A model generated the notes under the pieces. The model did no database searches. It was not told the origin of the DNA and worked only from the letters and a program-made list of their open reading frames with translations. This document shows, in pieces, positions 30,037 to 42,000 of a stretch of 53,673 nt of DNA. Source of the stretch: Escherichia phage vB_EcoM_SA91KD; sequence record NC_079183. One strand, written 5' to 3'. A program made the position numbers and the translations under genes. Position 1 is the stretch's first letter; every line of letters starts with the position of its first letter.

Positions 30037-30251
30037 ATATGGCGGTTATCACTCGATTAGATGCCCGCTCACGCAAGAACAATTCCTTCCAGATTCAAGA
30101 TTTGGAAGGAAACATTTTGTGTGTGATTGAGGCAGTTTCTACCACAGAGAGCGACTGTGTTAAGTTAAAGCACGAGTCAAATCTGCGACTCCACACCTCC
30201 GACAACATTCAAATTGTTAAGGGTAATGGAACTATTCTAAGGAAGAAATAA
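30027..30251 (+). CDS. Small protein between terminase and portal (gpW-like position), 70-74 aa
   Basis: Same position as lambda W. Confidence 0.4.
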   Translation: MDVNMAVITRLDARSRKNNSFQIQDLEGNILCVIEAVSTTESDCVKLKHESNLRLHTSDNIQIVKGNGTILRKK

Positions 30252-31567
30252 TGACTTCCAAGAAGAAAAACAATCTTTCTGTTAAAGTTGCAGATGGGTT
30301 AGAAAACCTTGTAACGGGGTTGGGCGGTCAGGCAGATAAGTCCACTTTCAACCAGTGGACTTTCTCAAACAAGAACGCGAATTATCGCGAACTTATGAAC
30401 CGCTTCCGTGAGGACTGGGTTGCACAGAAAGTGTGTACCGTCATTCCTCAGGATATGACGCGTAAGTGGCGACATATTGATAGCGAAGAAGGACGCAAGG
30501 CGGATAAGAAACTTCGTATTCGTAAGCTGTTCCGTGAAGCATATCAATGGGCCAGATTGTATGGTACTTCATTTGTTCTGCTCGACCTGAAAGGTACGGG
30601 TAAACTTGATACGCCGTTGCGACTGGATAACTTGAAGACTGGATGTATTAAATCCATGAGAGTTATTGACCGCTCACGCTTATTTGCCGCAGGAACTATG
30701 GTTCTGGACCCTTTGAGTCCTCACTATGGTTTGCCAGAGTATTACACTTTGGCTGGGTATCCCGGCTATATCCATTACACTCGTTTCCTTCGGTTCGAGG
30801 GTACTGAACTACCACTGTTCGAATTTCAACGTAACATGTGGTATTCCGATTCGGTACTTATTCCACTGCTGAAAACGATTGACCAATTCTATACAACTGC
30901 CGCTGCTGCTGCCAGCCTTGCCCAAGAAGCCACCATTGATGTGGTAACTGTTGAAGGCTTGCAATCTTTGCTTACATCACCGGAAGGTGAAGCTGCTGTG
31001 ATGAAGCGCTTCAAACTTATGAAGCTGGCAAAGAGTATTTATAACGTCTTAATTCTCGATAACACTGAGAAGTATGACACCAAGTCAATTGCACTATCTG
31101 GTGTGAAAGATTTGATTTGGGAATACTTGAAGATAGTTGCTGCCGCAGTTGGTATTCCGGCTACACGTTTCCTTTCTGCATCTCCAGACGGTATGAACGC
31201 TACGGGCGAATCTGACCTCGTAAACTATATCGACTTGTTGACTGGCTTGCAGACTTCTGTGTTCGACCCTCGTTTAGATGTGGTAGACAAGATTGTCCAG
31301 GCGCACTTTGGCATTGAAGAATATAACTACGAATGGTTAGATATCTTCCCTGAATCCAATGTTGAGAAAGCGAAGCGAGCTAAAGATTTGGCATTTGCTG
31401 TTGACCTGCTGGTTAACAACGGTACTATCACTACCGAAGTTGCAAACGAAGTTATGTTCCATTCGGGCGTGTTCGGAACTTGTGACCTTGGCAAACCAAA
31501 TCCTAATCCTCCTAACATCCAAAAGGGTAACGCAAGTGAAGCAAAACCAAAACCTGGTTCAGCTTAA
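30251..31567 (+). CDS. Portal protein (438 aa)
   Basis: aagga RBS; position immediately after TerL/W; size fits portals. Confidence 0.6.
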   Translation: MTSKKKNNLSVKVADGLENLVTGLGGQADKSTFNQWTFSNKNANYRELMNRFREDWVAQKVCTVIPQDMTRKWRHIDSEEGRKADKKLRIRKLFREAYQWARLYGTSFVLLDLKGTGKLDTPLRLDNLKTGCIKSMRVIDRSRLFAAGTMVLDPLSPHYGLPEYYTLAGYPGYIHYTRFLRFEGTELPLFEFQRNMWYSDSVLIPLLKTIDQFYTTAAAAASLAQEATIDVVTVEGLQSLLTSPEGEAAVMKRFKLMKLAKSIYNVLILDNTEKYDTKSIALSGVKDLIWEYLKIVAAAVGIPATRFLSASPDGMNATGESDLVNYIDLLTGLQTSVFDPRLDVVDKIVQAHFGIEEYNYEWLDIFPESNVEKAKRAKDLAFAVDLLVNNGTITTEVANEVMFHSGVFGTCDLGKPNPNPPNIQKGNASEAKPKPGSA

Positions 31568-32600
31568 CGACGAAGATACCGTGAATGAAGTAGTTTTGTT
31601 GAACGACAAGGCTACTTTAACGACCCGTCGTTTACGTGACTCTGGCGAAATGATTGCAGAATGCACCATCGCTCGTACTGGCATTATGCTGTACAAGGCG
31701 AAAGAACTTGGTGAAATTGCAAAACATCTGGACCCAGAATCTATTTGCCGTGTTCGTACCAAGCCGGAAGTATTATTTGACGAAGCAACCATCGAAGGCT
31801 GTCGTTCAATTCCGGTTACTATCGGCCATCCGAAAAATGATGTTAACATCAAGAACAACAAAGAACTCCAGAAAGGGTTCATCGAAGGGCGTCCAGTTGC
31901 AGACGGTTCTTTCTTGGCTGCATCAATCGTTTTGAATGACGAGCAAGCTATTCGATTAGTTGATTCTGGCGTTGACCAAATCTCCTTGGGCCATAATGCT
32001 GAACTGGCTGTGTCAGAAGATGATGAAGCTGACTTCGATAAAGTTCGCATTATCCCTAACCATGCTGCAATTGTTGTTCGTGGTCGTGCTCAGACTACTC
32101 GCATTGGTGACTCTGGTGAAGAGATTGCCATTGTTGATAAGGCAACCTTTGACGTTGTTGAAGCAGAGCGTGATGCAGCGCTTGACAAGATTAGTGTCCT
32201 TGAGCAGAAACTTGCTGATGCAGAAACTGCACGACTATCCGATGAAGCCATTCAGGCTGAGGTAGACAAACGTGTAATTGCTCGTACAGCACTGCTTGTT
32301 GATGTGGCACGTCTTGGCGACGAGTTCTCCAACCTCGATTTCTCCGGCAAGACCGATGCAGAAATTAAGTTGGCTGTAGTTAATAAATTGCATGACAAGG
32401 ATTTCAGCGATAAGAGCGAGGACTATATCTCCGCCCGTTTCGATGCAGCTCTTGAAGATTGCGATTCCATTACTTTGGGAGATGCCCTGAATCAGTCTAT
32501 GCAATTCTCTGCTAAGAAAGATTCAGAAGCTCGTAAACCTAAAGTTTCTATTTCCGAAGAAGCTAACAAACGTCGTTTAGAACGCTTCAACTCTTTATAA
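31536..32600 (+). CDS. Putative prohead protease / scaffolding protein (start uncertain)
   Basis: Between portal and decoration/capsid (lambda C/Nu3 position); C-terminal coiled-coil-like region ERDAALDKISVLEQKLADAETARL. GTG 31536 or ATG near 31645. Confidence 0.45.
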   Translation: MKQNQNLVQLNDEDTVNEVVLLNDKATLTTRRLRDSGEMIAECTIARTGIMLYKAKELGEIAKHLDPESICRVRTKPEVLFDEATIEGCRSIPVTIGHPKNDVNIKNNKELQKGFIEGRPVADGSFLAASIVLNDEQAIRLVDSGVDQISLGHNAELAVSEDDEADFDKVRIIPNHAAIVVRGRAQTTRIGDSGEEIAIVDKATFDVVEAERDAALDKISVLEQKLADAETARLSDEAIQAEVDKRVIARTALLVDVARLGDEFSNLDFSGKTDAEIKLAVVNKLHDKDFSDKSEDYISARFDAALEDCDSITLGDALNQSMQFSAKKDSEARKPKVSISEEANKRRLERFNSL

Positions 32601-32609
32601 GGTAAGACA

Positions 32610-33083
32610 ATGCCAAAGCAAGATTGGTCTATTAATACTGGTGAAGCATATGCAGGTGAACAATATGGCCTGGCTACCACCAACTCCCAGCGCCTGACTT
32701 ACGTTGCCGAAGAAGAAATGGCAAACTTTGGTCTGGCTGTTGTTCAAGGCACGGCTTCTAATCAGGTTAAACCTGGTATTGAATCTGATGGCACTGTTCT
32801 GGGCATTACTATGCGCCAGATTAACATCGAATCTGCTACTCGTCCTGGCGACGGCACTGTTGCAATCAAAGTTGGCTGGCCTCTGGGCGTTATGTTGTCT
32901 GGCCCAATCATGGTCAAACTGAAAACTGCAATCACCGACAAGAACATTGGTGTATCCACTGAAGGTGAATTTGGTGGCGTTGGTGCTGGCTATACTAAGG
33001 CAACCAACCTGACTGCACTTCGTTATCCGGCTTCCGCTGGTGATGTTGTCCCGGTCATGATTAACGTAGTCCCAAAGCCGTAA
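32610..33083 (+). CDS. Putative head decoration protein (157 aa), zero-frame product
   Basis: aaggtaag RBS; lambda gpD-like position just upstream of the capsid gene; ends ...VVPKP-stop with a slippery heptamer in the last codons. Confidence 0.55.
   Translation: MPKQDWSINTGEAYAGEQYGLATTNSQRLTYVAEEEMANFGLAVVQGTASNQVKPGIESDGTVLGITMRQINIESATRPGDGTVAIKVGWPLGVMLSGPIMVKLKTAITDKNIGVSTEGEFGGVGAGYTKATNLTALRYPASAGDVVPVMINVVPKP
33071..33077 (+). other. Candidate -1 programmed ribosomal frameshift site C_CCA_AAG
   Basis: Canonical X_XXY_YYZ heptamer with zero-frame codons CCA AAG, 4 nt before the stop; the -1 frame is open into the Ig-like ORF; inverted repeat cctaca/tgtagg lies 20 nt downstream. Confidence 0.55.
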
Positions 33084-33658
33084 CGCCACCTCCAGCTCCT
33101 ACAGTATCTGCTGTTGTAGGGGCTGTAACTGCGGACGCATCTGCCTCTGATGCTACTGTAACTGTGGACAAACTGTTTGAATTTGAGAACTCCGCAGCAA
33201 CAGATTATAACTTCGCTGTTACACCTCCTGTGACTGGTGTTTCTGTGGCGGCAAACGGCACTGTGACTGTACTTAGTGCAACGACTACAGCCACTTCTGC
33301 GATAATCAAGGCAACGAATAAAACAGAATCTGGTGTAACTGCATCTAAACAGATTACGATTAAGCCTAAACCTCCTGCACCTACGGTGTCTGCTGTAGCT
33401 GGAGTTGTAACGGCTGATGCGTCTTCTACTGATGCCACTGTAACTGTAGACAAGCTGTTCAAGTTTGGTAACTCTACAGCAACAGACTACACCTACGCTA
33501 TTACGCCTCCTGTGACTGGCGTTTCTGTGGCTGCAAATGGTACTGTAACCGTCTTGAATGAGGCAACTACCGATACCTCTGCCACGGTTAAGGCAACAAA
33601 CAAAACAACCTCCAGCGTGACTGCAACTAAAGAAATTGCTATTACGCCGAAGTCTTAA
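33077..33658 (+). CDS. Frameshift extension ORF encoding two tandem Ig-like (BIG-type) domains
   Basis: Open in the -1 frame from the slippery site; no ATG or RBS of its own; two about 95-aa repeats (PPAPTVSAV...TVDKLF.F.NS.ATDY...ITPPVTGVSVAANGTVTVL...KATNKT). Confidence 0.55.
   Translation, partial: AVTPPPAPTVSAVVGAVTADASASDATVTVDKLFEFENSAATDYNFAVTPPVTGVSVAANGTVTVLSATTTATSAIIKATNKTESGVTASKQITIKPKPPAPTVSAVAGVVTADASSTDATVTVDKLFKFGNSTATDYTYAITPPVTGVSVAANGTVTVLNEATTDTSATVKATNKTTSSVTATKEIAITPKS
33086..33655 (+). repeat. Tandem duplication, two units of about 285 nt each
   Basis: Units at about 33086-33370 and 33371-33655 are clearly homologous at nucleotide and protein level. Confidence 0.8.
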
Positions 33659-33680
33659 GTTGTGATGGCGCAATTAATAG

Positions 33681-34721
33681 TTGCGCCTCACCAAACAAAA
33701 CGGATTAATTTACATGCCTAAGATGATTAAACTGGCGGACGGTTCTGAATTCGAACTGAACGACGCTATCACCCGTATTCAGGATTCTGGCACTGTTGTC
33801 CTGAATGACGACGATGCAGTATTCTTTCAACGCCAGCTTGAGTACATTGAAGCTCAAACTTACGACACTCTGTATCCAGAACTGGAAGCTCGTGCTGCTT
33901 TCGGTGTGGACACTACTGGCGGTGCTGGCGTAAACACTCTGACTTATCGTTCTTACAACCATGTTGGTAAAGCTCAGGTAATTAACGCCCGTGCAACCGA
34001 CCTGCCGAAGTCCAGCATTTCTGGTAAAGAATACAGCATCCCTGTTAAATCTGTTGGTACTGCATTTGACTACGATATTGATGAAGTGGCGTCTGCTGCT
34101 GTTACTGGCCTCCCGCTGGAAACTCGTAAAGCAAATGCTGCTATTCGTGGTTACGAACAGTATGTCAACTCTGCTGCATGGTACGGCGATAAAGCTAACG
34201 GTTTTGTTGGCTTCTTCGAAAACCCAGACATTACCAAAGCAACTGTTGCTCAGGGTGCTGGCGGTTCTACTAAGTGGGCCGAGAAGACTCCGACCGAAGT
34301 TATTGCCGACCTGACTGCTGCTGTGTCTGCAATGTATTCCTCTACTCTGAAAATCATGCGCCCGGATGAAATCTGGATGCCTGTTGAGCATGAGCAGTAC
34401 ATCTTCAACACTGCACGTTCTGAGCAGTCTGATAAGACGATTGGTCAATTCTTCATTGACAACAACCAGTTCATCAACTCCCGTGATAAAATCAAGGGTC
34501 TGAACGCAATCAAAGGTCACGGCGATGCTGGCTCTGACTGCTTCGTTGTTGTTTGCCGCAATGCAATGGGCAACCGTACTTTCCGTCTGCGTGAACCCCT
34601 GCCGCTGACCTGGCAACCAGTACAGCTTCATGGTCTGGTTTATGAAGTTCCTGGCCGTGGTCGTTTCGCTGGCTTCCAAGCGATGTATCCGGCAGCAATC
34701 TCCATCAACTCCGGCATCTGA
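33681..34721 (+). CDS. Major capsid protein (about 335-346 aa)
   Basis: Lambda gpE-like position and size; high-expression codon choice. Start TTG 33681 per track, or ATG 33714. Confidence 0.65.
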   Translation: MRLTKQNGLIYMPKMIKLADGSEFELNDAITRIQDSGTVVLNDDDAVFFQRQLEYIEAQTYDTLYPELEARAAFGVDTTGGAGVNTLTYRSYNHVGKAQVINARATDLPKSSISGKEYSIPVKSVGTAFDYDIDEVASAAVTGLPLETRKANAAIRGYEQYVNSAAWYGDKANGFVGFFENPDITKATVAQGAGGSTKWAEKTPTEVIADLTAAVSAMYSSTLKIMRPDEIWMPVEHEQYIFNTARSEQSDKTIGQFFIDNNQFINSRDKIKGLNAIKGHGDAGSDCFVVVCRNAMGNRTFRLREPLPLTWQPVQLHGLVYEVPGRGRFAGFQAMYPAAISINSGI

Positions 34722-36466: not shown

Positions 36467-37915
36467 ATGGCAATTCCAATTTCCGACATCATCCAGGTCA
36501 ACATTGCGGTAAGTCCTAACGCTGTTGCCGTGGAAGGTTTTGGTCCTCTTCTGTTTCTGAGTAAAGAGTTTACTCCGACTTTGGGCGAAGCTGTTCCTGT
36601 TCGCCAGTACACCAGCATGGCTGCTGTATCTACTGATTTCCCATCTGGTGAAATCTATCAAGCTGCATTAGCGTGGTTCTCTCAGAAGCCAACTCCAAAG
36701 TATTTCCTCGTAGGTGCTATCACCCATGAAGATGTTACTCTGGCAACTCCTGGTACTGTAACCGCATCTTCTGCTGCGACCCTGGAAACCATTACTGCGT
36801 TAACTAATGGTGTTCTGTCCATTAATATTAATGGCGTTGATAAGTCCACTGCACCTATCAACTTCTCGTCTGCAAAAGACTTTAATGCTGCTGCATCAAT
36901 GCTTAATGCTGCATTTGTTACTGCTGGCATTCCTGCAACTGCTTCGCAGACCACAGGCACTTTCAAAATCACTACCAACGAAACTGGTTCCACTGCTATC
37001 ATTGGTAACGTGTATGGTTCTGCTGCTGAGGCATTTGAATTAGATTCTGCTTCAAGCCCTGTACATGTTCAAGGTACTGATGAAGTGTCTATTGGCACCG
37101 ACCTCAATGCAATCTTGAACTCTGCGTTCGACTTCTTCTTTGTTGCTATTGACCGCAAATATCGTGGCAGCGCTGATGGTAATAACCAGATGACTGTTGC
37201 CAAGTGGGCAGAAGCAAACGGCAAAGTGTTTGGTTGGGCTGATAGCGACCCGCAGATTCTGGTTCCTGGTGCTGAGTCTAGCTTTAAGCGTGCCAAAGAG
37301 CAGAACCTCCAACGTACTCTGTTGGTGTATGATGCGTCTGACAATGGTGACGAGTATCCAGAAGTTTCTATCCTGGGCCGTGCATCGACTGTTAACTTCA
37401 ACGTTGCAAACTCTTCGCTCGTTCTGGCATTTAAACAAGGTCCAGCTATCAAGACTGCTGACTTGTCCCCGAACCAGCTTGCTGCACTTGAGCGTGTGAA
37501 TGGTAACGCATTCATCAACGTCGGCGGTAACACTATGTTCTACAACGGCAAGATGGCTGACGGTACTTGGTTCGATACCGTGCAGGGTGTTTCTTGGTTA
37601 ACCTCCAAGATTCGTGCTAACGTGTTCAACCTGTTCTACACCTCCACTACCAAGATTCCTTGGACGGACACTGGTGTTGCTCTGGTGAACCAGCAAGTAA
37701 CCCTGGCTCTGGAACTGGCAGTGACCAATGGTCTGATTGCTCCAGGTTACGACAATGAAGGCAACTTCTATCCAGATGGCTACAAAGTCTTGGCTACCGA
37801 CTTGGCTCTGATGCAATCTCAGAAAGGTGCTCGTATCTGGGAAGGCACTTCCTTCATTGCAATTGGCTCTGGCGCATTGCAGGGTGCAGTTATCTCTGGC
37901 AACTTCGTTCAGTAA
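36467..37915 (+). CDS. Tail sheath protein (482 aa)
   Basis: About 480-aa protein followed by a 151-aa tube-sized protein, chaperone and tape measure (Mu gpL/gpM order). Confidence 0.6.
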   Translation: MAIPISDIIQVNIAVSPNAVAVEGFGPLLFLSKEFTPTLGEAVPVRQYTSMAAVSTDFPSGEIYQAALAWFSQKPTPKYFLVGAITHEDVTLATPGTVTASSAATLETITALTNGVLSININGVDKSTAPINFSSAKDFNAAASMLNAAFVTAGIPATASQTTGTFKITTNETGSTAIIGNVYGSAAEAFELDSASSPVHVQGTDEVSIGTDLNAILNSAFDFFFVAIDRKYRGSADGNNQMTVAKWAEANGKVFGWADSDPQILVPGAESSFKRAKEQNLQRTLLVYDASDNGDEYPEVSILGRASTVNFNVANSSLVLAFKQGPAIKTADLSPNQLAALERVNGNAFINVGGNTMFYNGKMADGTWFDTVQGVSWLTSKIRANVFNLFYTSTTKIPWTDTGVALVNQQVTLALELAVTNGLIAPGYDNEGNFYPDGYKVLATDLALMQSQKGARIWEGTSFIAIGSGALQGAVISGNFVQ

Positions 37916-37925
37916 GGTGCGATAA

Positions 37926-38381
37926 GTGAAACAATATTCTTTCTATAATACCGACCTCATTATCGACGGTGCTCGTGTAGATGGTTTTACCTCTGGTAAT
38001 TCCATCATCACTGCTCGTCGTAACGCACCTCAACACCTGCCTGTTATTGACGCGTATGGTAAGTTGGCTGTAGCTACTACGGCTGACTTATCTGGTACTA
38101 TTACTTTCCCGCTTCTGCAAACCGCAGACTGGAACGAAATCCTGTACAGCCGTGCTCAGTTAACTCAGGCAACTGGCCTGTCTGGCAACAAATCTCTGTG
38201 GCAACCACTCCAGATTCAGATTGTTGACAAGATGGGTGATGTGCTGGTCAATGGTGTAAACGGCGCTATCTTGCAGCAACCTGCAATTCAGCGTGGTGTG
38301 TCCTTCACGTCTAACGTGTGGTCTATCTTTGTAGAGCGCCTCCAGATTAAGACTGGCTCTTATCCGGAAATTGGCGTTTAA
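37926..38381 (+). CDS. Tail tube protein (151 aa)
   Basis: Position and size; GTG start. Confidence 0.5.
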   Translation: MKQYSFYNTDLIIDGARVDGFTSGNSIITARRNAPQHLPVIDAYGKLAVATTADLSGTITFPLLQTADWNEILYSRAQLTQATGLSGNKSLWQPLQIQIVDKMGDVLVNGVNGAILQQPAIQRGVSFTSNVWSIFVERLQIKTGSYPEIGV

Positions 38382-38392
38382 TTGGAGTAAGT

Positions 38393-38851
38393 ATGGCTTG
38401 TGAATTGCTTCAACGTGAATTCACAAACTCCAAAGGAGAAACAGTGTTAGTCGTTGTTCGACAATTGTCGGCTTCGGCTGCACTGTCTCTTCACGCGGAG
38501 TTGGTAAGCAAGTTAGGCTCACGAGTATTTCCATTCATCGAAGGTAAATATAACTTCGCTGATATTATATACTTGATGCAGCAAGTAGAGCATACCGTAT
38601 TCACAGAATTGTTTAAGCGTGTTATCAGCATGCACTCGTCCATAGATGGACAAGAAATCAAACCTGCATTATATGATATGCAGTTCAATGGCGAATTGAT
38701 GTTGTCTTGCCATGTCTTTGCTTTCGTGCTCGAAGCAAACTTCCTTGATTTTTTCAAGCAAGGGCTCGAAATCAACGAACAGAGACGATTGGAGGCGGAG
38801 GAAGCATCCAAGCTGGCAGAGCAGAAGAATTCGAGTCCGGAGACAGTTTAG
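38393..38851 (+). CDS. Tail assembly chaperone (152 aa)
   Basis: Position between tube and tape measure; acidic C-terminus. Confidence 0.45.
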   Translation: MACELLQREFTNSKGETVLVVVRQLSASAALSLHAELVSKLGSRVFPFIEGKYNFADIIYLMQQVEHTVFTELFKRVISMHSSIDGQEIKPALYDMQFNGELMLSCHVFAFVLEANFLDFFKQGLEINEQRRLEAEEASKLAEQKNSSPETV

Positions 38852-39010
38852 TATCCCTGTTCCCCGACATAAAATATTTTCTGCATCGTCCTATAATCGA
38901 AGACAGTTCTCTCTGCAAGTTACGTGAATTGCAAGATGGAACCTATTCGATTATGGACTTATTGCTATTCCACGACATTCTCGATTTGCGTAAGAAACTC
39001 GAACCAGTAG

Positions 39011-42000
39011 ATGAAGACAATGGCTAATCAAAAAGATTTAATGAAGTTGAGCGTTAATGAGTTAATTGCATTAGGCTCTCAAAGCGGTCTGACTTTCCAT
39101 GCTGGTATGAAGAAGTCGCACATGGTTCAACAACTTAGTGCGAGCGCTGCTTCGGGATGGCTGGATACAAATGCAGAATTAATGGGTGGGTCGTTCGAAG
39201 ATGACAGTTTAATTACTGAATCTTTGGGTGACTCTTCCATGATTTCAGACGCTGCCCACATTGCACAAGTGCTTTCAAGTGCTGGCTACACAGAAGCATT
39301 TCATGCAGCAATGAATGGCCCATCACACCATGTAGAAGCTGTTCACGCATACATGGAAAGGCTTGGCGTTAGCACAGATGATGTGTGGATGCACATGCCA
39401 AAGCCAAATCCGAACTTACCGCAAGGTAGCTTCAACATGCTTAATGCCTATATGCGAGATACTTTGCAAGGGCATCAAGATATTATGCCAGAAATCCCAG
39501 GTCACTATTCTGGTGATATTATGGCAGAATACTCCACCAACCGTGGAAACATTGCTGACTCCTACAACTACATGGCTCACATGTATGTTGACCGTGAGCA
39601 ATACAGCAATCATGAACAATACGCAAGAGACATTAGTCGAGTTGCCAAACGTCTGGAACGAGAGTTACCCTCAGCCTTTAAGGAAGTTGGGTATACATCC
39701 GCATCTAATGTAGGAAATAAATCGGCCCCACATATTTCTTACATGGATGCACTACCTCAAATTGGTTCTCCTTCAATTGTTTCTGGCATTGCACATCCTC
39801 GTGCACCACTTAACGCATCTGGACTTCCTCTTGGTTCTTATGGTTCTGGCATAAATCCAGAATACTCCCTCACCGCATCACTAACTGGTGGCACAGGTTG
39901 GAGCGAGCCAAGCAAGGCTTTGTATTCTTCTATTAGTGAAGCTGTTAAATCTGCTGCCAAAGTTTATTCTGGCTCCAAAGGGATGCTGAATACTCGTCAT
40001 GAAGTATCTGACCGTGACATGATTATGGACAGCGCAACTCGCTATACAGATTTGGAAGAAGCCAGAAGCGGATACGAAAACCTCCGTTCTGAACTTGCAG
40101 ATGAGCCAGCTTATTCTGCATCAAGTGTTCGAGCTATCCTCGAAAACACTTATGATAAAATGGATGCCGAACCTGTTCGCATTCCAAAGATGAAGGGAGC
40201 TTCACAGCGAGTCGATAAAGATTCACTGTCAACATCTACAGATTTTACAGCACAACTTGGAGAGGCCACCAATTGGAACTCTGCAAGAATGCGTCGTGAG
40301 GAACTTGCGATTGCAAACATGGATAGTGCTGGATTCCGTGATGTATCAGACTATGGTACAGGACGTTCCGAGTCCCCCGTCCGATTCCATGACTTAGAAC
40401 AGGGTAGCCAAGAGTGGCTAGACTTCCGTAAAAATTATGACATAACTGGCTCAACTGTTGGAACCTTCTTAGGAAACAACCCATACACCCGACCTTGGGC
40501 TGGGATGATTGATAAGATTGGCCTATCTCGTAGTAAAGAGCACAGCGATTTCACCAAGAAGATGTTCGCTGATGGTCACAGGACGGAAGAAGAAGCACGC
40601 GCCCGTGTTAGCAAGGAATTTGGATTTGATATCAAACAAACTGGCGCTATAACAAATGACAACTATCCCGCCTTCATGTATTCTCCTGATGGTCTTATTG
40701 GGGATGATGCCATTTGGGAGCACAAGAATCCGCAAAGGGCTGGTAAGTTTGCTGACCTTCTTAAAGGCGACCATCCAGACTACATGGACCAAATTCAATT
40801 TGGTATGCACGTTTCTGGCCGTTCTCGTGCTTTGTTCTCACAAACCATCAACGACGAAACACGTTCACAGTGGATTGAGAAGGACGAAGGATGGTACGAA
40901 AGAAACCGAAATCGCCTTGATTCTGTGCTTGGCCGTCTTGATGCTGGGCGAGAGTTTGTTAGAAACAATGCTGGATTAGAACGAGAAGAGCTGATTGCTG
41001 GTGCAAGAAGTGCAATGACTGGTGATGGAATCTGGAAAGATATTCGTCAAAGGTCTACTCGTGGCTATTCTGCTGCTGCTGGCACTCCAGAAGACCCGTT
41101 TATTGGTTCACGTTCTTCGTACAATCCAGGGGCATCTTACTCTGACTACAAGCCAAACTTTGTAATGCACGAGCAAAACTTTCCGGCAACCACTGGAAAT
41201 GGTGACACCGGAAATGACTCGATGGCATTGTCTGTTAAGAAAGGTATTCTTGCTGCCCAGGAAGAAAACAGGCAGAAAGGTATCGGTGCAGATGCAGACT
41301 TTGATGGCAAAGCCGACTCAATGGGTTGGAACCGTGAAAGATTTGATGCTGCCAATGGCGGTGGATATTCTGGCGGTGGCGGTGGTCGTGGCGGCAACTT
41401 CACAAGTGGTGGCAACTACTATGATGACTACGGTCGCATGGGTGGTTCGTTAGCTGCTGGCATTGCTGGTGGCAGTATTGGTTCAGCAACCAACGGAGTT
41501 ATGCAAGCATTGATGGCAACTCCTGCGGGACGTATGGCTGCTGTAGGCATTGGTGCTATTCAGATTGGCAATGAAGCTGCTGAATACATGAATGACTTTA
41601 TCGGCAACTCGCTTGATGCTGGTGTGATAAATCCTAATGAATACTCTTCTATGTCGCAAGGCTTGGAGATGTTAGGACTCAACTCACAACAAGCGGCACG
41701 TCTGAATCAAACCACACATAGTGCCTATAACACCATGCTTAACGGCGACCCTAGCGCCGCTGTGAACATCGTTCGCGGCAGTAGGGGATTGCTCACCATA
41801 GGTGATATTCGTGCGACAGGCGGCGACCCTGTGGCCCTGGCTCGCATCATGCAGGAAAGGGGCAAGGAACGTGGCTGGAGCCAGGCCCGTATCGCAGGTG
41901 CTGCCGAAATGGCTGGCCTGAATGGGATGGCGCGAGCCTACGACCGCACGGAATACAGCCATGAGCAAGCTGGCTCGGTGGTAGAAGCAGGTAGAAACTC

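What the first reader, a model, noticed from the sequence alone, without database searches (positions are those of the whole stretch)
32610..33658. Candidate -1 programmed frameshift (C_CCA_AAG) appending two Ig-like domains to a head decoration protein
The 157-aa gene upstream of the capsid gene ends ...gtC CCA AAG ccg taa, giving a canonical X_XXY_YYZ slippery heptamer at 33071-33077. The -1 frame is open from there through two tandem Ig-like repeats to 33658. The downstream ORF has no ATG and no RBS of its own, and a possible stem (cctaca/tgtagg) lies 20 nt downstream. Ig-like domains added to phage structural proteins by frameshifting are a known theme; here the target is a decoration-position protein and the repeats are a recent tandem duplication.
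Basis: partly seen in the sequence, partly recalled or inferred. Interest (0 to 1): 0.65.

Follow-up and report, generated by a model that had tools for sequence, protein, structure and literature searches.

The report
Frameshift adds surface domains to capsid cement
This E. coli phage very probably makes a minor, longer form of its capsid "cement" protein when ribosomes slip back one base at a conserved C_CCA_AAG site, adding two surface domains; this is a known phage trick that is unannotated in this phage family.

Summary
The window is a Carltongylesvirus (Chaseviridae, 97% identical to phage flopper). Gene 32610-33083 encodes a 157-aa Pfam Phage_cement protein. It ends GT C_CCA_AAG CCG TAA, and the -1 frame stays open from 33065 to 33658.

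Comparison of 32 loci strongly supports a programmed -1 frameshift:
- Every locus with a 93-193-codon -1 ORF has C_CCA_AAR, or at least N_NNA_AAG, 0-1 codons before the cement stop.
- Seven of the eight loci without the ORF lack the site.
- Of 55 invariant amino-acid columns, only four keep an invariant codon, and two of these are the CCA and AAG of the heptamer.
- No relative has an ATG or a ribosome-binding site near the ORF's 5' end.
- Substitutions fall mainly on -1-frame third codon positions.
- At least three unrelated domain cassettes, some clearly Ig/Hoc-like, follow the same slip site.

- The two repeats are only 74% identical, so the duplication is not recent.
- The hairpin is not conserved and lies 15 nt downstream.
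- The Ig fold of this particular domain type is unproven.

No record or paper I could search annotates the frameshift. It is a new member of a known kind.

The parts
32610..33083 (+). Cement (head decoration) gene, 0-frame product of 157 aa (16.4 kDa), ending ...VVPKP*
   Evidence: ORF. Pfam PF22758 Phage_cement (E217 gp24/Pam3 gp6), E 2e-17, 64 bits against cut-off 27. PHROG 563 virion structural protein. The 69%-identical homologue AC4HA13_0057 was found in purified 4HA13 virions with 100% coverage (PMC9699118 Table S2).
33071..33077 (+). Slippery heptamer C_CCA_AAG, in frame as X_XXY_YYZ
   Evidence: Sequence. The nucleotides are invariant in all 19 compared loci that have C_CCA_AAG, and one further locus has C_CCA_AAA. 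CCA and AAG are 2 of only 4 invariant codons among 55 invariant amino-acid columns, and the preceding codon always ends in C although it encodes V, G, A, L or I. C_CCA_AAG is among the most efficient E. coli motifs (PMC4066793; PMC5009743).
33081..33083 (+). 0-frame stop TAA, one codon after the heptamer
   Evidence: In every relative with the slip site, a 0-frame TAA or TAG lies 0 or 1 codon after it.
33078..33089 (+). Invariant 12-nt spacer CCGTAACGCCAC after the heptamer; role unknown
   Evidence: Alignment A6. It is almost invariant in the 12 loci with the window-type domain, with C or T at its first base and a 3-nt offset in Y2. This includes -1-frame third positions and bases past the 0-frame stop.
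33077..33658 (+). -1 frame extension: 193 codons plus stop. The predicted trans-frame product is 156 + 193 = 349 aa (35.4 kDa)
   Evidence: Translation; size. Substitutions are concentrated at -1-frame third positions, for example 47 of 74 between the repeats. PHROG 13745 'Ig domain containing protein', E 2.8e-11.
33077..33106 (+). Proline-rich linker AVTPPPAPTV
   Evidence: Comparable Pro-rich linkers follow the slip site in all cassette types.
33083..33364 (+). Domain repeat 1 (94 codons)
   Evidence: 88% nucleotide identity to the single ST32 domain; 95% to flopper repeat 1.
33365..33646 (+). Domain repeat 2 (94 codons)
   Evidence: 74% nucleotide identity to repeat 1; 98% to flopper repeat 2.
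33093..33125 (+). 14-bp hairpin 15 nt downstream of the heptamer; a doubtful stimulator
   Evidence: -23.4 kcal/mol, z -1.2. Not conserved. Only a weak 7-bp core is shared within the same-cassette group, with consensus energy -5.7 kcal/mol and covariation term +0.55.
33714..34721 (+). Major capsid protein gene (context)
   Evidence: Pfam PF09950, E 6.8e-48. Relatives annotate the equivalent ATG as the start.

Best explanation
The cement gene 32610-33083 is decoded in two ways. Most ribosomes read ...GTC CCA AAG CCG and stop at TAA, giving the 157-aa cement protein. By homology with E217 gp24, this protein forms beta-tulip trimers on the threefold and quasi-threefold axes of the capsid.

A minority of ribosomes, with tRNA-Pro on CCA and tRNA-Lys on AAG, slip back one base to CCC and AAA (tandem -1 slippage on C_CCA_AAG). 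They then read GCC GTA ACG CCA... in the -1 frame. The result is a 349-aa protein: the cement core, a Pro-rich linker (AVTPPPAPTV), and two about 94-residue all-beta, probably Ig-like, domains.

I infer that the long form co-assembles with the short form, so each virion displays a sub-stoichiometric number of outward-facing domains. These domains probably mediate weak adhesion to carbohydrate-rich surfaces, as proposed for other phage Ig-like domains.

The slip site plus linker acts as a fixed port across Cleopatravirinae, behind which different domain cassettes have been exchanged or duplicated.

Shown here: the site, the open frame, its conservation, the synonymous constraint, the absence of independent starts, and purifying selection on the -1 frame. 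Inferred: the frameshift product itself, its efficiency, its incorporation into capsids and its function.
For: - Anatomy. The in-frame heptamer sits inside an 18-nt overlap window, followed by 193 open codons.
- Co-occurrence in 32 loci. All 20 loci with C_CCA_AAR 0-1 codons before the cement stop have a -1 ORF of 93-193 codons. Four more have N_NNA_AAG plus the ORF. Of the eight loci without the ORF (Nefertitivirinae, Shantouvirus and four metagenomic relatives), seven lack the site and one has a GAA_AAG that looks like chance.
- Synonymous constraint. Among 55 invariant amino-acid columns in 12 cement genes that are 59-100% identical to the window's, only 4 codons are invariant. Two lie at the start of the gene and two are the heptamer's CCA and AAG. 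The preceding codon always ends in C although it encodes five different amino acids.
- No independent start. Across 19 loci there is no ATG in the first 40 codons. The first start-like codon lies anywhere from codon 6 to codon 80, essentially never with a Shine-Dalgarno match. GenBank annotators chose inconsistent internal starts or annotated nothing.
- The -1 frame is under purifying selection. Differences are biased to its third positions.
- At least three unrelated domain types follow the same slip site, including Pfam Ig_2/Ig_3/I-set and Hoc-like PHROGs.
- C_CCA_AAG is among the most shift-prone heptamers in E. coli, reaching 54% with a strong stimulator (PMC4066793; PMC5009743).
- The cement homologue is an abundant virion protein in phage 4HA13 (PMC9699118).
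- None of 131 cement homologues (124-187 aa) carries the domain in frame.
Against: - There is no direct protein evidence. The 4HA13 virion proteome was searched only against annotated proteins, and only proteins with at least 50% coverage are listed, so it neither shows nor excludes the long form.
- No conserved RNA stimulator was found. The window's hairpin has a 15-nt spacer, z -1.2, and is not conserved. No Shine-Dalgarno-like element lies within about 30 nt upstream.
- Without a stimulator, heptamers in the E. coli reporter study gave at most about 10 times a roughly 0.05% background. The efficiency here could therefore be very low.
- Four relatives have non-canonical P-site codons (G_GCA, G_GTA, A_GTA, G_TTA before AAG).
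- The Ig fold of the window's domain type is unconfirmed: mean pLDDT was 49-51 and there is no Pfam hit.
- The loci compared are phylogenetically related, so counts and the Fisher test are descriptive only.
Confidence: 0.85

Rival explanations
1. The downstream ORF is an independent small gene, as current GenBank records annotate it. It would be translated from an internal GTG or TTG start, or by termination-reinitiation after the cement stop codon, giving a free Ig-like protein.
For: Several records annotate separate CDSs here, for example ST32 gp56, Y2 gp67 and BSBP01 'Ig protein'. The window has a GTG at 33164. The 0-frame stop is always close to the 5' end of the ORF, as coupling would need.
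Against: The annotated starts are inconsistent between records. No ATG and no Shine-Dalgarno match is conserved. In some relatives the first start-like codon is at codon 56-80 of a 95-100-codon ORF, which could not yield the domain. The 29 codons before the window's GTG are conserved as protein and stay open in all relatives. This model does not explain the synonymous invariance of NNC CCA AAG. A free 94-aa domain would have no evident capsid-binding part.
Confidence: 0.06
2. The ORF is a decaying remnant or an assembly indel. The cement gene would once have been fused in frame to the domains, or the reading frame would be a sequencing error, and nothing beyond the 157-aa protein is made.
For: Frameshifted ORF pairs often are pseudogenes or homopolymer errors. 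The extension is absent from some relatives without obvious harm.
Against: The same frame arrangement appears in more than 50 independently sequenced phages and metagenomic contigs. The -1 frame has stayed open for 93-193 codons across lineages whose cement proteins are only about 60% identical, with third-position-biased substitution. The heptamer has only three-base runs, which are not error-prone. No in-frame ancestor exists among 131 homologues.
Confidence: 0.03
3. The fusion is made by transcriptional slippage: RNA polymerase adds or drops a base at the CCCAAAG tract, and the ribosome does not shift.
For: According to the literature, this phage family encodes its own single-subunit RNA polymerase. 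Transcriptional slippage is a known alternative route to trans-frame proteins (PMC5009743).
Against: The runs are only CCC and AAA. From general knowledge, slippage needs homopolymer runs of about 7 or more. The conserved pattern is precisely the codon-phased X_XXY_YYZ, including the phase of the preceding NNC codon. That is a ribosomal signature, not a polymerase one.
Confidence: 0.02

Closest known systems
-1 frameshift C-terminal extensions of phage major capsid proteins: T7/T3 gene 10A/10B and Lactobacillus phage A2 gp5A/5B (described in PMC5009743)
   Same: A late structural gene ends with a slippery site. A minority -1 product carries a C-terminal extension, Ig-like in T3 and A2, and co-assembles into the capsid at sub-stoichiometric level. 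As I recall it, A2 uses the near-identical C_CCA_AAA, which one relative here (L027) also uses.
   Different: The carrier here is not the HK97-fold major capsid protein but a separate trimeric beta-tulip cement protein (PF22758). No conserved downstream stimulator was found. Two tandem domains are appended, and the cassette differs between relatives.
Promiscuous Ig-like domains on phage structural proteins (Fraser et al. 2006, as summarised in PMC5009743)
   Same: The domains are small, beta-rich and accessory. They sit at the C-terminus of virion proteins, are patchily distributed, are sometimes reached by +1 or -1 frameshifting, and are thought to move by non-homologous recombination.
   Different: The examples named in the review are capsid and major tail proteins. 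I found no report of a cement or decoration protein extended this way. In this family the domain is always out of frame: 0 of 131 homologues are fused in frame.
T4 Hoc and Hoc-like head decoration proteins
   Same: They display Ig-like (I-set) domains on the capsid surface. Cassettes in relatives (Orgeat, L027) hit Hoc-like PHROGs 2973 and 4069.
   Different: Hoc is a separate, fully translated protein with its own capsid-binding domain and a fixed site at hexamer centres. Here the display domains ride on the cement protein through recoding. The window's own domain type does not hit Hoc models.
Cement proteins E217 gp24 and Pam3 gp6 (PF22758); see PMC10329688
   Same: The 157-aa core belongs to the same Pfam family and occupies the same gene position, between the protease/scaffold gene and the major capsid gene.
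   Different: E217 gp24 is described as a 211-residue protein with no frameshift extension. The recoding site is specific to Chaseviridae subfamily Cleopatravirinae and its metagenomic relatives.
Tail assembly chaperone G/GT -1 frameshift of long-tailed phages
   Same: It is a conserved -1 slip near the 3' end of a short structural-module gene that produces a fixed ratio of short and long products. This window has a candidate for it as well, T_TTT_TTC at 38749.
   Different: G/GT products are assembly chaperones that are not retained in the virion. The product here is expected to be a virion surface component.

Membership tests
Bacterial -1 programmed ribosomal frameshift site (tandem-slippage type) | In-frame X_XXY_YYZ heptamer that allows both tRNAs to re-pair in the -1 frame | tested here: met
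   C_CCA_AAG at 33071-33077 is in phase with the 32610 ORF. The motif ranks among the most efficient in E. coli.
Bacterial -1 programmed ribosomal frameshift site (tandem-slippage type) | The -1 ORF overlaps the slip site and extends well beyond the 0-frame stop | tested here: met
   The -1 frame is open from 33065 to 33658, giving 193 codons after the slip. Only 1 of 20,000 shuffles stays open.
Bacterial -1 programmed ribosomal frameshift site (tandem-slippage type) | Nucleotide-level conservation of the slip site beyond what the protein requires | tested here: met
   CCA and AAG are 2 of only 4 invariant codons among 55 invariant amino-acid columns. The preceding codon is always NNC. The site and the ORF co-occur.
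Bacterial -1 programmed ribosomal frameshift site (tandem-slippage type) | Stimulatory element: a hairpin or pseudoknot about 5-9 nt downstream, or a Shine-Dalgarno-like element about 10 nt upstream | tested here: inconclusive
   The window has a 14-bp hairpin, but with a 15-nt spacer and z -1.2, and it is not conserved. I saw no upstream Shine-Dalgarno-like sequence. A nearby 0-frame stop and an invariant 12-nt spacer are conserved, but their effect is unknown.
Bacterial -1 programmed ribosomal frameshift site (tandem-slippage type) | A trans-frame protein is actually produced | not testable with these tools
   The published 4HA13 virion proteome was searched only against annotated ORFs.
Phage Ig-like accessory domains appended to structural proteins | The domain has an Ig-like beta-sandwich fold (I-set, Big_2 or FN3 class) | tested here: inconclusive
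   For the window's type there is no Pfam Ig hit at E<1, no solved-structure sequence hit and hhalign probability 0.2 to the I-set cassettes. AlphaFold gives mean pLDDT 49-51 but all-beta models, with about 6-8 strands per repeat in the two-repeat model. Foldseek on the low-confidence model hits cadherin-like and Ig domains at TM 0.4-0.5. The PHROG 13745 and RefSeq labels say 'Ig domain'. For relatives' cassettes the feature is met: Ig_2/Ig_3/I-set down to E 1e-8.
Phage Ig-like accessory domains appended to structural proteins | C-terminal attachment to a virion structural protein | tested here: met
   The carrier is a PF22758 cement protein. Its homologue is abundant in virions. The attachment itself is inferred through the frameshift.
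Phage Ig-like accessory domains appended to structural proteins | Patchy, dispensable distribution and modular exchange | tested here: met
   The ORF is absent from Nefertitivirinae, Shantouvirus and four metagenomic relatives. Relatives carry one or two copies, and at least three unrelated cassette types.
PF22758 Phage_cement (E217 gp24 / Pam3 gp6) | Profile match above the curated threshold over the full domain | tested here: met
   64.1 bits against cut-off 27; residues 4-152 match profile positions 4-146 of 146.
PF22758 Phage_cement (E217 gp24 / Pam3 gp6) | Trimeric beta-tulip protein bound at the threefold and quasi-threefold axes of the capsid | not tested
   This is known for E217 gp24 (PMC10329688). 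I made no structure of the Chaseviridae protein. phmmer against PDB sequences found nothing significant.

The most novel reading that the evidence does not exclude
The heptamer, the nearby stop, the invariant 12-nt spacer and the Pro-rich linker together form a conserved 'display port' on the cement gene. Recoding sets a low copy number that a crowded trimeric cement lattice can tolerate, which would explain why no in-frame fusion exists in 131 homologues. The conserved joint would also serve as the recombination point where unrelated surface-domain cassettes are swapped or duplicated between phages of different hosts. Frameshifting would be driven without a classical RNA structure, by the spacer sequence and/or slow termination at the adjacent stop (Pro-stop in most members).
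Probability: 0.3. Interest if true: 0.6.

Novelty: new member of a known kind. Interest (0 to 1): 0.45.

Why it matters
- **Annotation.** It corrects more than 50 Chaseviridae genomes, several of them proposed biocontrol or therapy phages. These currently list a start-less 'hypothetical' or 'Ig domain' ORF, or nothing, after the cement gene.
- **Known theme, new carrier.** It extends the theme of Ig-like domains added by recoding from major capsid and tail proteins to a trimeric cement protein.
- **A natural experiment.** One invariant slip site is followed by several interchangeable domain cassettes. Some relatives have non-canonical P-site codons, and some have a stop directly after the slip site. 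This makes the family useful for studying how frameshift efficiency is tuned without an obvious RNA structure.
- **Practical use.** The site could be a ready-made low-copy capsid display position, analogous to T7 10B.
- **Function.** If the domains mediate surface or mucus adherence, they would bear on host range and persistence.

Tried and rejected
- **Structure of the extension.** AlphaFold on the 193-aa extension alone, and on repeat 2 with a 4-row alignment, gave mean pLDDT 51 and 49. I do not trust the folds. The Foldseek hits to cadherin and Ig domains are only weak hints.
- **Deepening the alignment.** The search for homologous proteins with the extension returned only 2 hits, because T/A/V-rich words saturated the candidate list. 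I could not build a deeper alignment.
- **Sequence-level fold evidence.** A profile of the window-type domain against PDB sequences and Pfam gave only chance-level hits. hhalign to the I-set cassettes gave probability 0.2.
- **In-frame fusions.** I looked for in-frame cement-Ig fusions among 86 close and 45 distant cement homologues. None exists; all are 124-187 aa.
- **Conserved stimulator.** RNAalifold on 14 diverse loci gave no structure. On 12 same-cassette loci it gave only a weak hairpin with no net covariation support.
- **Tandem Repeats Finder** missed the 282-nt repeat. The repeat finder and a direct alignment found it.
- **Antisense ORFs.** The minus-strand ORFs 32595-33089 and 33023-33673 are shadow ORFs. 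Substitutions fall on + strand -1-frame third positions, which are first positions of the antisense frame.
- **Literature.** Searches for Chaseviridae or phiEcoM-GJ1 with frameshift, cement protein with frameshift, and decoration protein with Ig-like and frameshift found no report of this site.
Full report
**What the window is.**
The 1.5 kb around the finding is 97% identical to Escherichia phage flopper and 82-96% identical over the full stretch to 28 other records, such as DE15, JL1, ST32 and phiEcoM-GJ1. The window is therefore a Carltongylesvirus (Chaseviridae, Cleopatravirinae). The local gene order is:

| Coordinates | Gene |
|---|---|
| 30251-31567 | portal |
| 31359-32600 | DUF2213 protease/scaffold |
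| 32610-33083 | the 157-aa gene of the finding |
| 33077-33658 | the start-less ORF |
| 33714-34721 | major capsid protein |

**The observation.**
All stated features are present.
- The 157-aa ORF ends GTA GTC CCA AAG CCG TAA. C_CCA_AAG lies at 33071-33077, in the X_XXY_YYZ phase.
- The -1 frame is closed by a stop immediately upstream and open from 33065 to 33658. The shift window is only 18 nt and contains the heptamer.
- After the slip the frame reads AVTPPPAPTV... for 193 codons. Only 1 of 20,000 shuffles of the stretch stays open, and the other two frames carry 15-16 stops.
- The window's long ORFs contain 37 in-frame heptamers. None is followed by a comparably long -1 ORF.
- The extension has no ATG. 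Its first start-like codon is a GTG at codon 30, and no start-like codon has a Shine-Dalgarno match.
- The predicted trans-frame product is 349 aa and 35.4 kDa, close in size to the 36.7-kDa capsid protein.

**The carrier protein.**
The 157-aa protein matches Pfam PF22758 Phage_cement (E217 gp24/Pam3 gp6) at 64 bits against a cut-off of 27. E217 gp24 is a trimeric beta-tulip protein on the threefold and quasi-threefold axes of the capsid (PMC10329688). In phage 4HA13 the 69%-identical homologue AC4HA13_0057 is one of the most abundant virion proteins and was recovered with 100% coverage (PMC9699118).

**Comparative evidence for recoding.**
I compared 32 loci: the window, 19 GenBank stretches, 4 IMG/VR contigs and 8 metagenomic contigs. 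They were analysed.
- All 20 loci with C_CCA_AAG (19) or C_CCA_AAA (1) placed 0-1 codons before the cement stop have a -1 ORF of 93-193 codons that fills the gap to the capsid gene.
- Four further loci have the ORF behind a non-canonical site: G_GCA_AAG (Proteus phage Myduc), G_GTA_AAG, A_GTA_AAG and G_TTA_AAG.
- Eight loci have a gap of only 15-90 nt and no such ORF. These are Shewanella Spp001, Aeromonas pAh6-C, pAh6.2TG and ZPAH14, Vibrio VPs20, and four metagenomic relatives whose cement proteins end differently. Seven of them lack any A_AAR site. The eighth (pAh6.2TG) ends GAA_AAG, which looks like chance.
- L021's long '-1 ORF' is simply the capsid gene's own frame.
- The loci are related, so these counts are descriptive.

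The synonymous-site test does not depend on those counts. I aligned 12 cement genes that are 59-100% identical in protein to the window's. Of 55 columns with an invariant degenerate amino acid, only 4 keep an invariant codon. Two are codons 2 and 4, at the start of the gene, and two are the heptamer's CCA and AAG. The codon before them always ends in C although it encodes V, G, A, L or I.

**Against independent initiation.**
Across 19 loci there is no ATG in the first 40 codons of the extension. The first GTG or TTG lies anywhere from codon 6 to codon 80, almost never with a Shine-Dalgarno match. GenBank annotators either skipped the ORF or chose different internal starts. The segment before any possible start is conserved as protein. 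Differences between repeats and between phages fall mostly on third positions of the -1 frame, for example 47 of 74. This also rules out the antisense shadow ORFs listed.

**What is appended.**
The window-type domain occurs in 53 phage records, all or nearly all of them Chaseviridae to judge by organism names and the taxonomy lines I read. RefSeq and PHROG 13745 label it 'Ig domain'. I could not confirm the fold:
- No Pfam Ig hit and no PDB sequence hit.
- No profile similarity to the I-set cassettes.
- AlphaFold confidence of only 49-51, although the models are all-beta, with about 6-8 strands per repeat in the two-repeat model.
- Foldseek hits to cadherin-like and Ig modules at TM 0.4-0.5.

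Other relatives carry different cassettes behind the same slip site and a Pro-rich linker. These include clear Ig_2/Ig_3/I-set domains that also hit Hoc-like and major-tail-protein PHROGs. A third type has no family match (L015 and L017).

**The repeats.**
The two 94-codon units are in register, and each begins with the PPAPTV linker. They are only 74% identical in nucleotides. Each is closer to ST32's single domain (88% and 81%) than to the other repeat. Flopper, DE15 and JL1 share the same pair. The two-domain state therefore predates these phages. It may have arisen by unequal recombination between already diverged genomes; that is my inference. 'Recent' is not supported.

**Mechanism and open points.**
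- C_CCA_AAG is among the three best E. coli heptamers. It reached 54% with the IS3 pseudoknot, but heptamers without a stimulator gave at most about 10 times a 0.05% background (PMC4066793; PMC5009743).
- I found no conserved stimulator. The window's 14-bp hairpin (33093-33125) starts 15 nt downstream, has z -1.2, and is not conserved.
- What is conserved is a 0-frame stop 0-1 codons after the slip site, and an almost invariant 12-nt spacer, CCGTAACGCCAC, in the window-type group. Their roles are unexplained.
- None of 131 cement homologues carries a domain in frame. This fits the idea that only sub-stoichiometric display is tolerated on a trimeric cement lattice. That is an inference.

**Comparison with what is known.**
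Frameshift-appended Ig-like extensions are described for T3, Lactobacillus phage A2 and Listeria phages A118, A500 and PSA, on capsid and tail proteins (PMC5009743). I found no report for a cement or decoration protein, and none for Chaseviridae. No record annotates a joined CDS. The library searched holds open-access papers only.

**Verdict.**
The frameshift site is real and strongly supported, but it has no protein-level evidence. It is a new member of a known kind, of moderate interest.

Noticed in passing
window 38393-39027 (heptamer 38749-38755): Gene 38393-38851 lies just after the sheath gene (36467-37915) and the putative tail tube gene (37926-38381). It contains an in-frame T_TTT_TTC. 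The -1 frame stays open for 90 codons, 57 of them past the stop. This is probably the tail assembly chaperone G/GT-type frameshift.
   Followed up: partly
window 33659-33696: A strong hairpin lies in the gap between the extension's stop and the capsid gene, with core GGCGCAA...TTGCGCC (-17.9 kcal/mol, z -3.7). No T-tract follows it, and the terminator scan did not call it. By eye, relatives have a hairpin of different sequence at the same place, including those without the Ig ORF (Faunus, Y2, Spp001, L021, L022). It could be an RNA processing, stability or attenuation element ahead of the capsid gene.
   Followed up: partly
window 33078-33089: The 12 nt after the heptamer (CCGTAACGCCAC) are almost invariant across 12 loci. 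This includes synonymous positions and bases beyond the 0-frame stop, while third positions further downstream vary. This is unexplained.
   Followed up: partly
L019 (Proteus phage Myduc) 2460-2806; L024, L025, L026 (metagenomic): These relatives keep the -1 Ig ORF but have non-canonical slip sites: G_GCA_AAG, G_GTA_AAG, A_GTA_AAG and G_TTA_AAG. Only the A-site A_AAG can re-pair perfectly. In Myduc the ORF overlaps the capsid gene start.
   Followed up: partly
window 32595-33089 (-) and 33023-33673 (-): Long antisense ORFs of 164 and 216 aa, the latter Cys/Arg-rich, cover the cement gene and the extension. They are shadow ORFs produced by the Thr/Ala/Val-rich coding strand.
   Followed up: yes
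GenBank PP952070.1 (hits H23, H54, H116): 'Staphylococcus phage Pel53' (host given as S. hyicus) is 88% identical in DNA to this E. coli phage module and carries the same cement-frameshift arrangement. The host label looks doubtful.
   Followed up: no
window 33681-33716: the ORF listing starts the capsid ORF at TTG 33681, but relatives annotate the equivalent of ATG 33714 (MPKMIKLADG...). The capsid gene most likely starts at 33714.
   Followed up: partly
BFVD hits A0A5B9N681 (Escherichia phage Paul, 894-aa 'major capsid protein') and A0A5C1K9C0 (Shigella phage SGF2, 'Bacterial Ig-like domain protein'): Foldseek reported 33-34% sequence identity over about 185 columns between the window's two-domain extension and these proteins. 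This hints that the same domain type is fused in frame to other structural proteins elsewhere. The query model was low-confidence, and tblastn at E<=1e-5 did not recover them.
   Followed up: no
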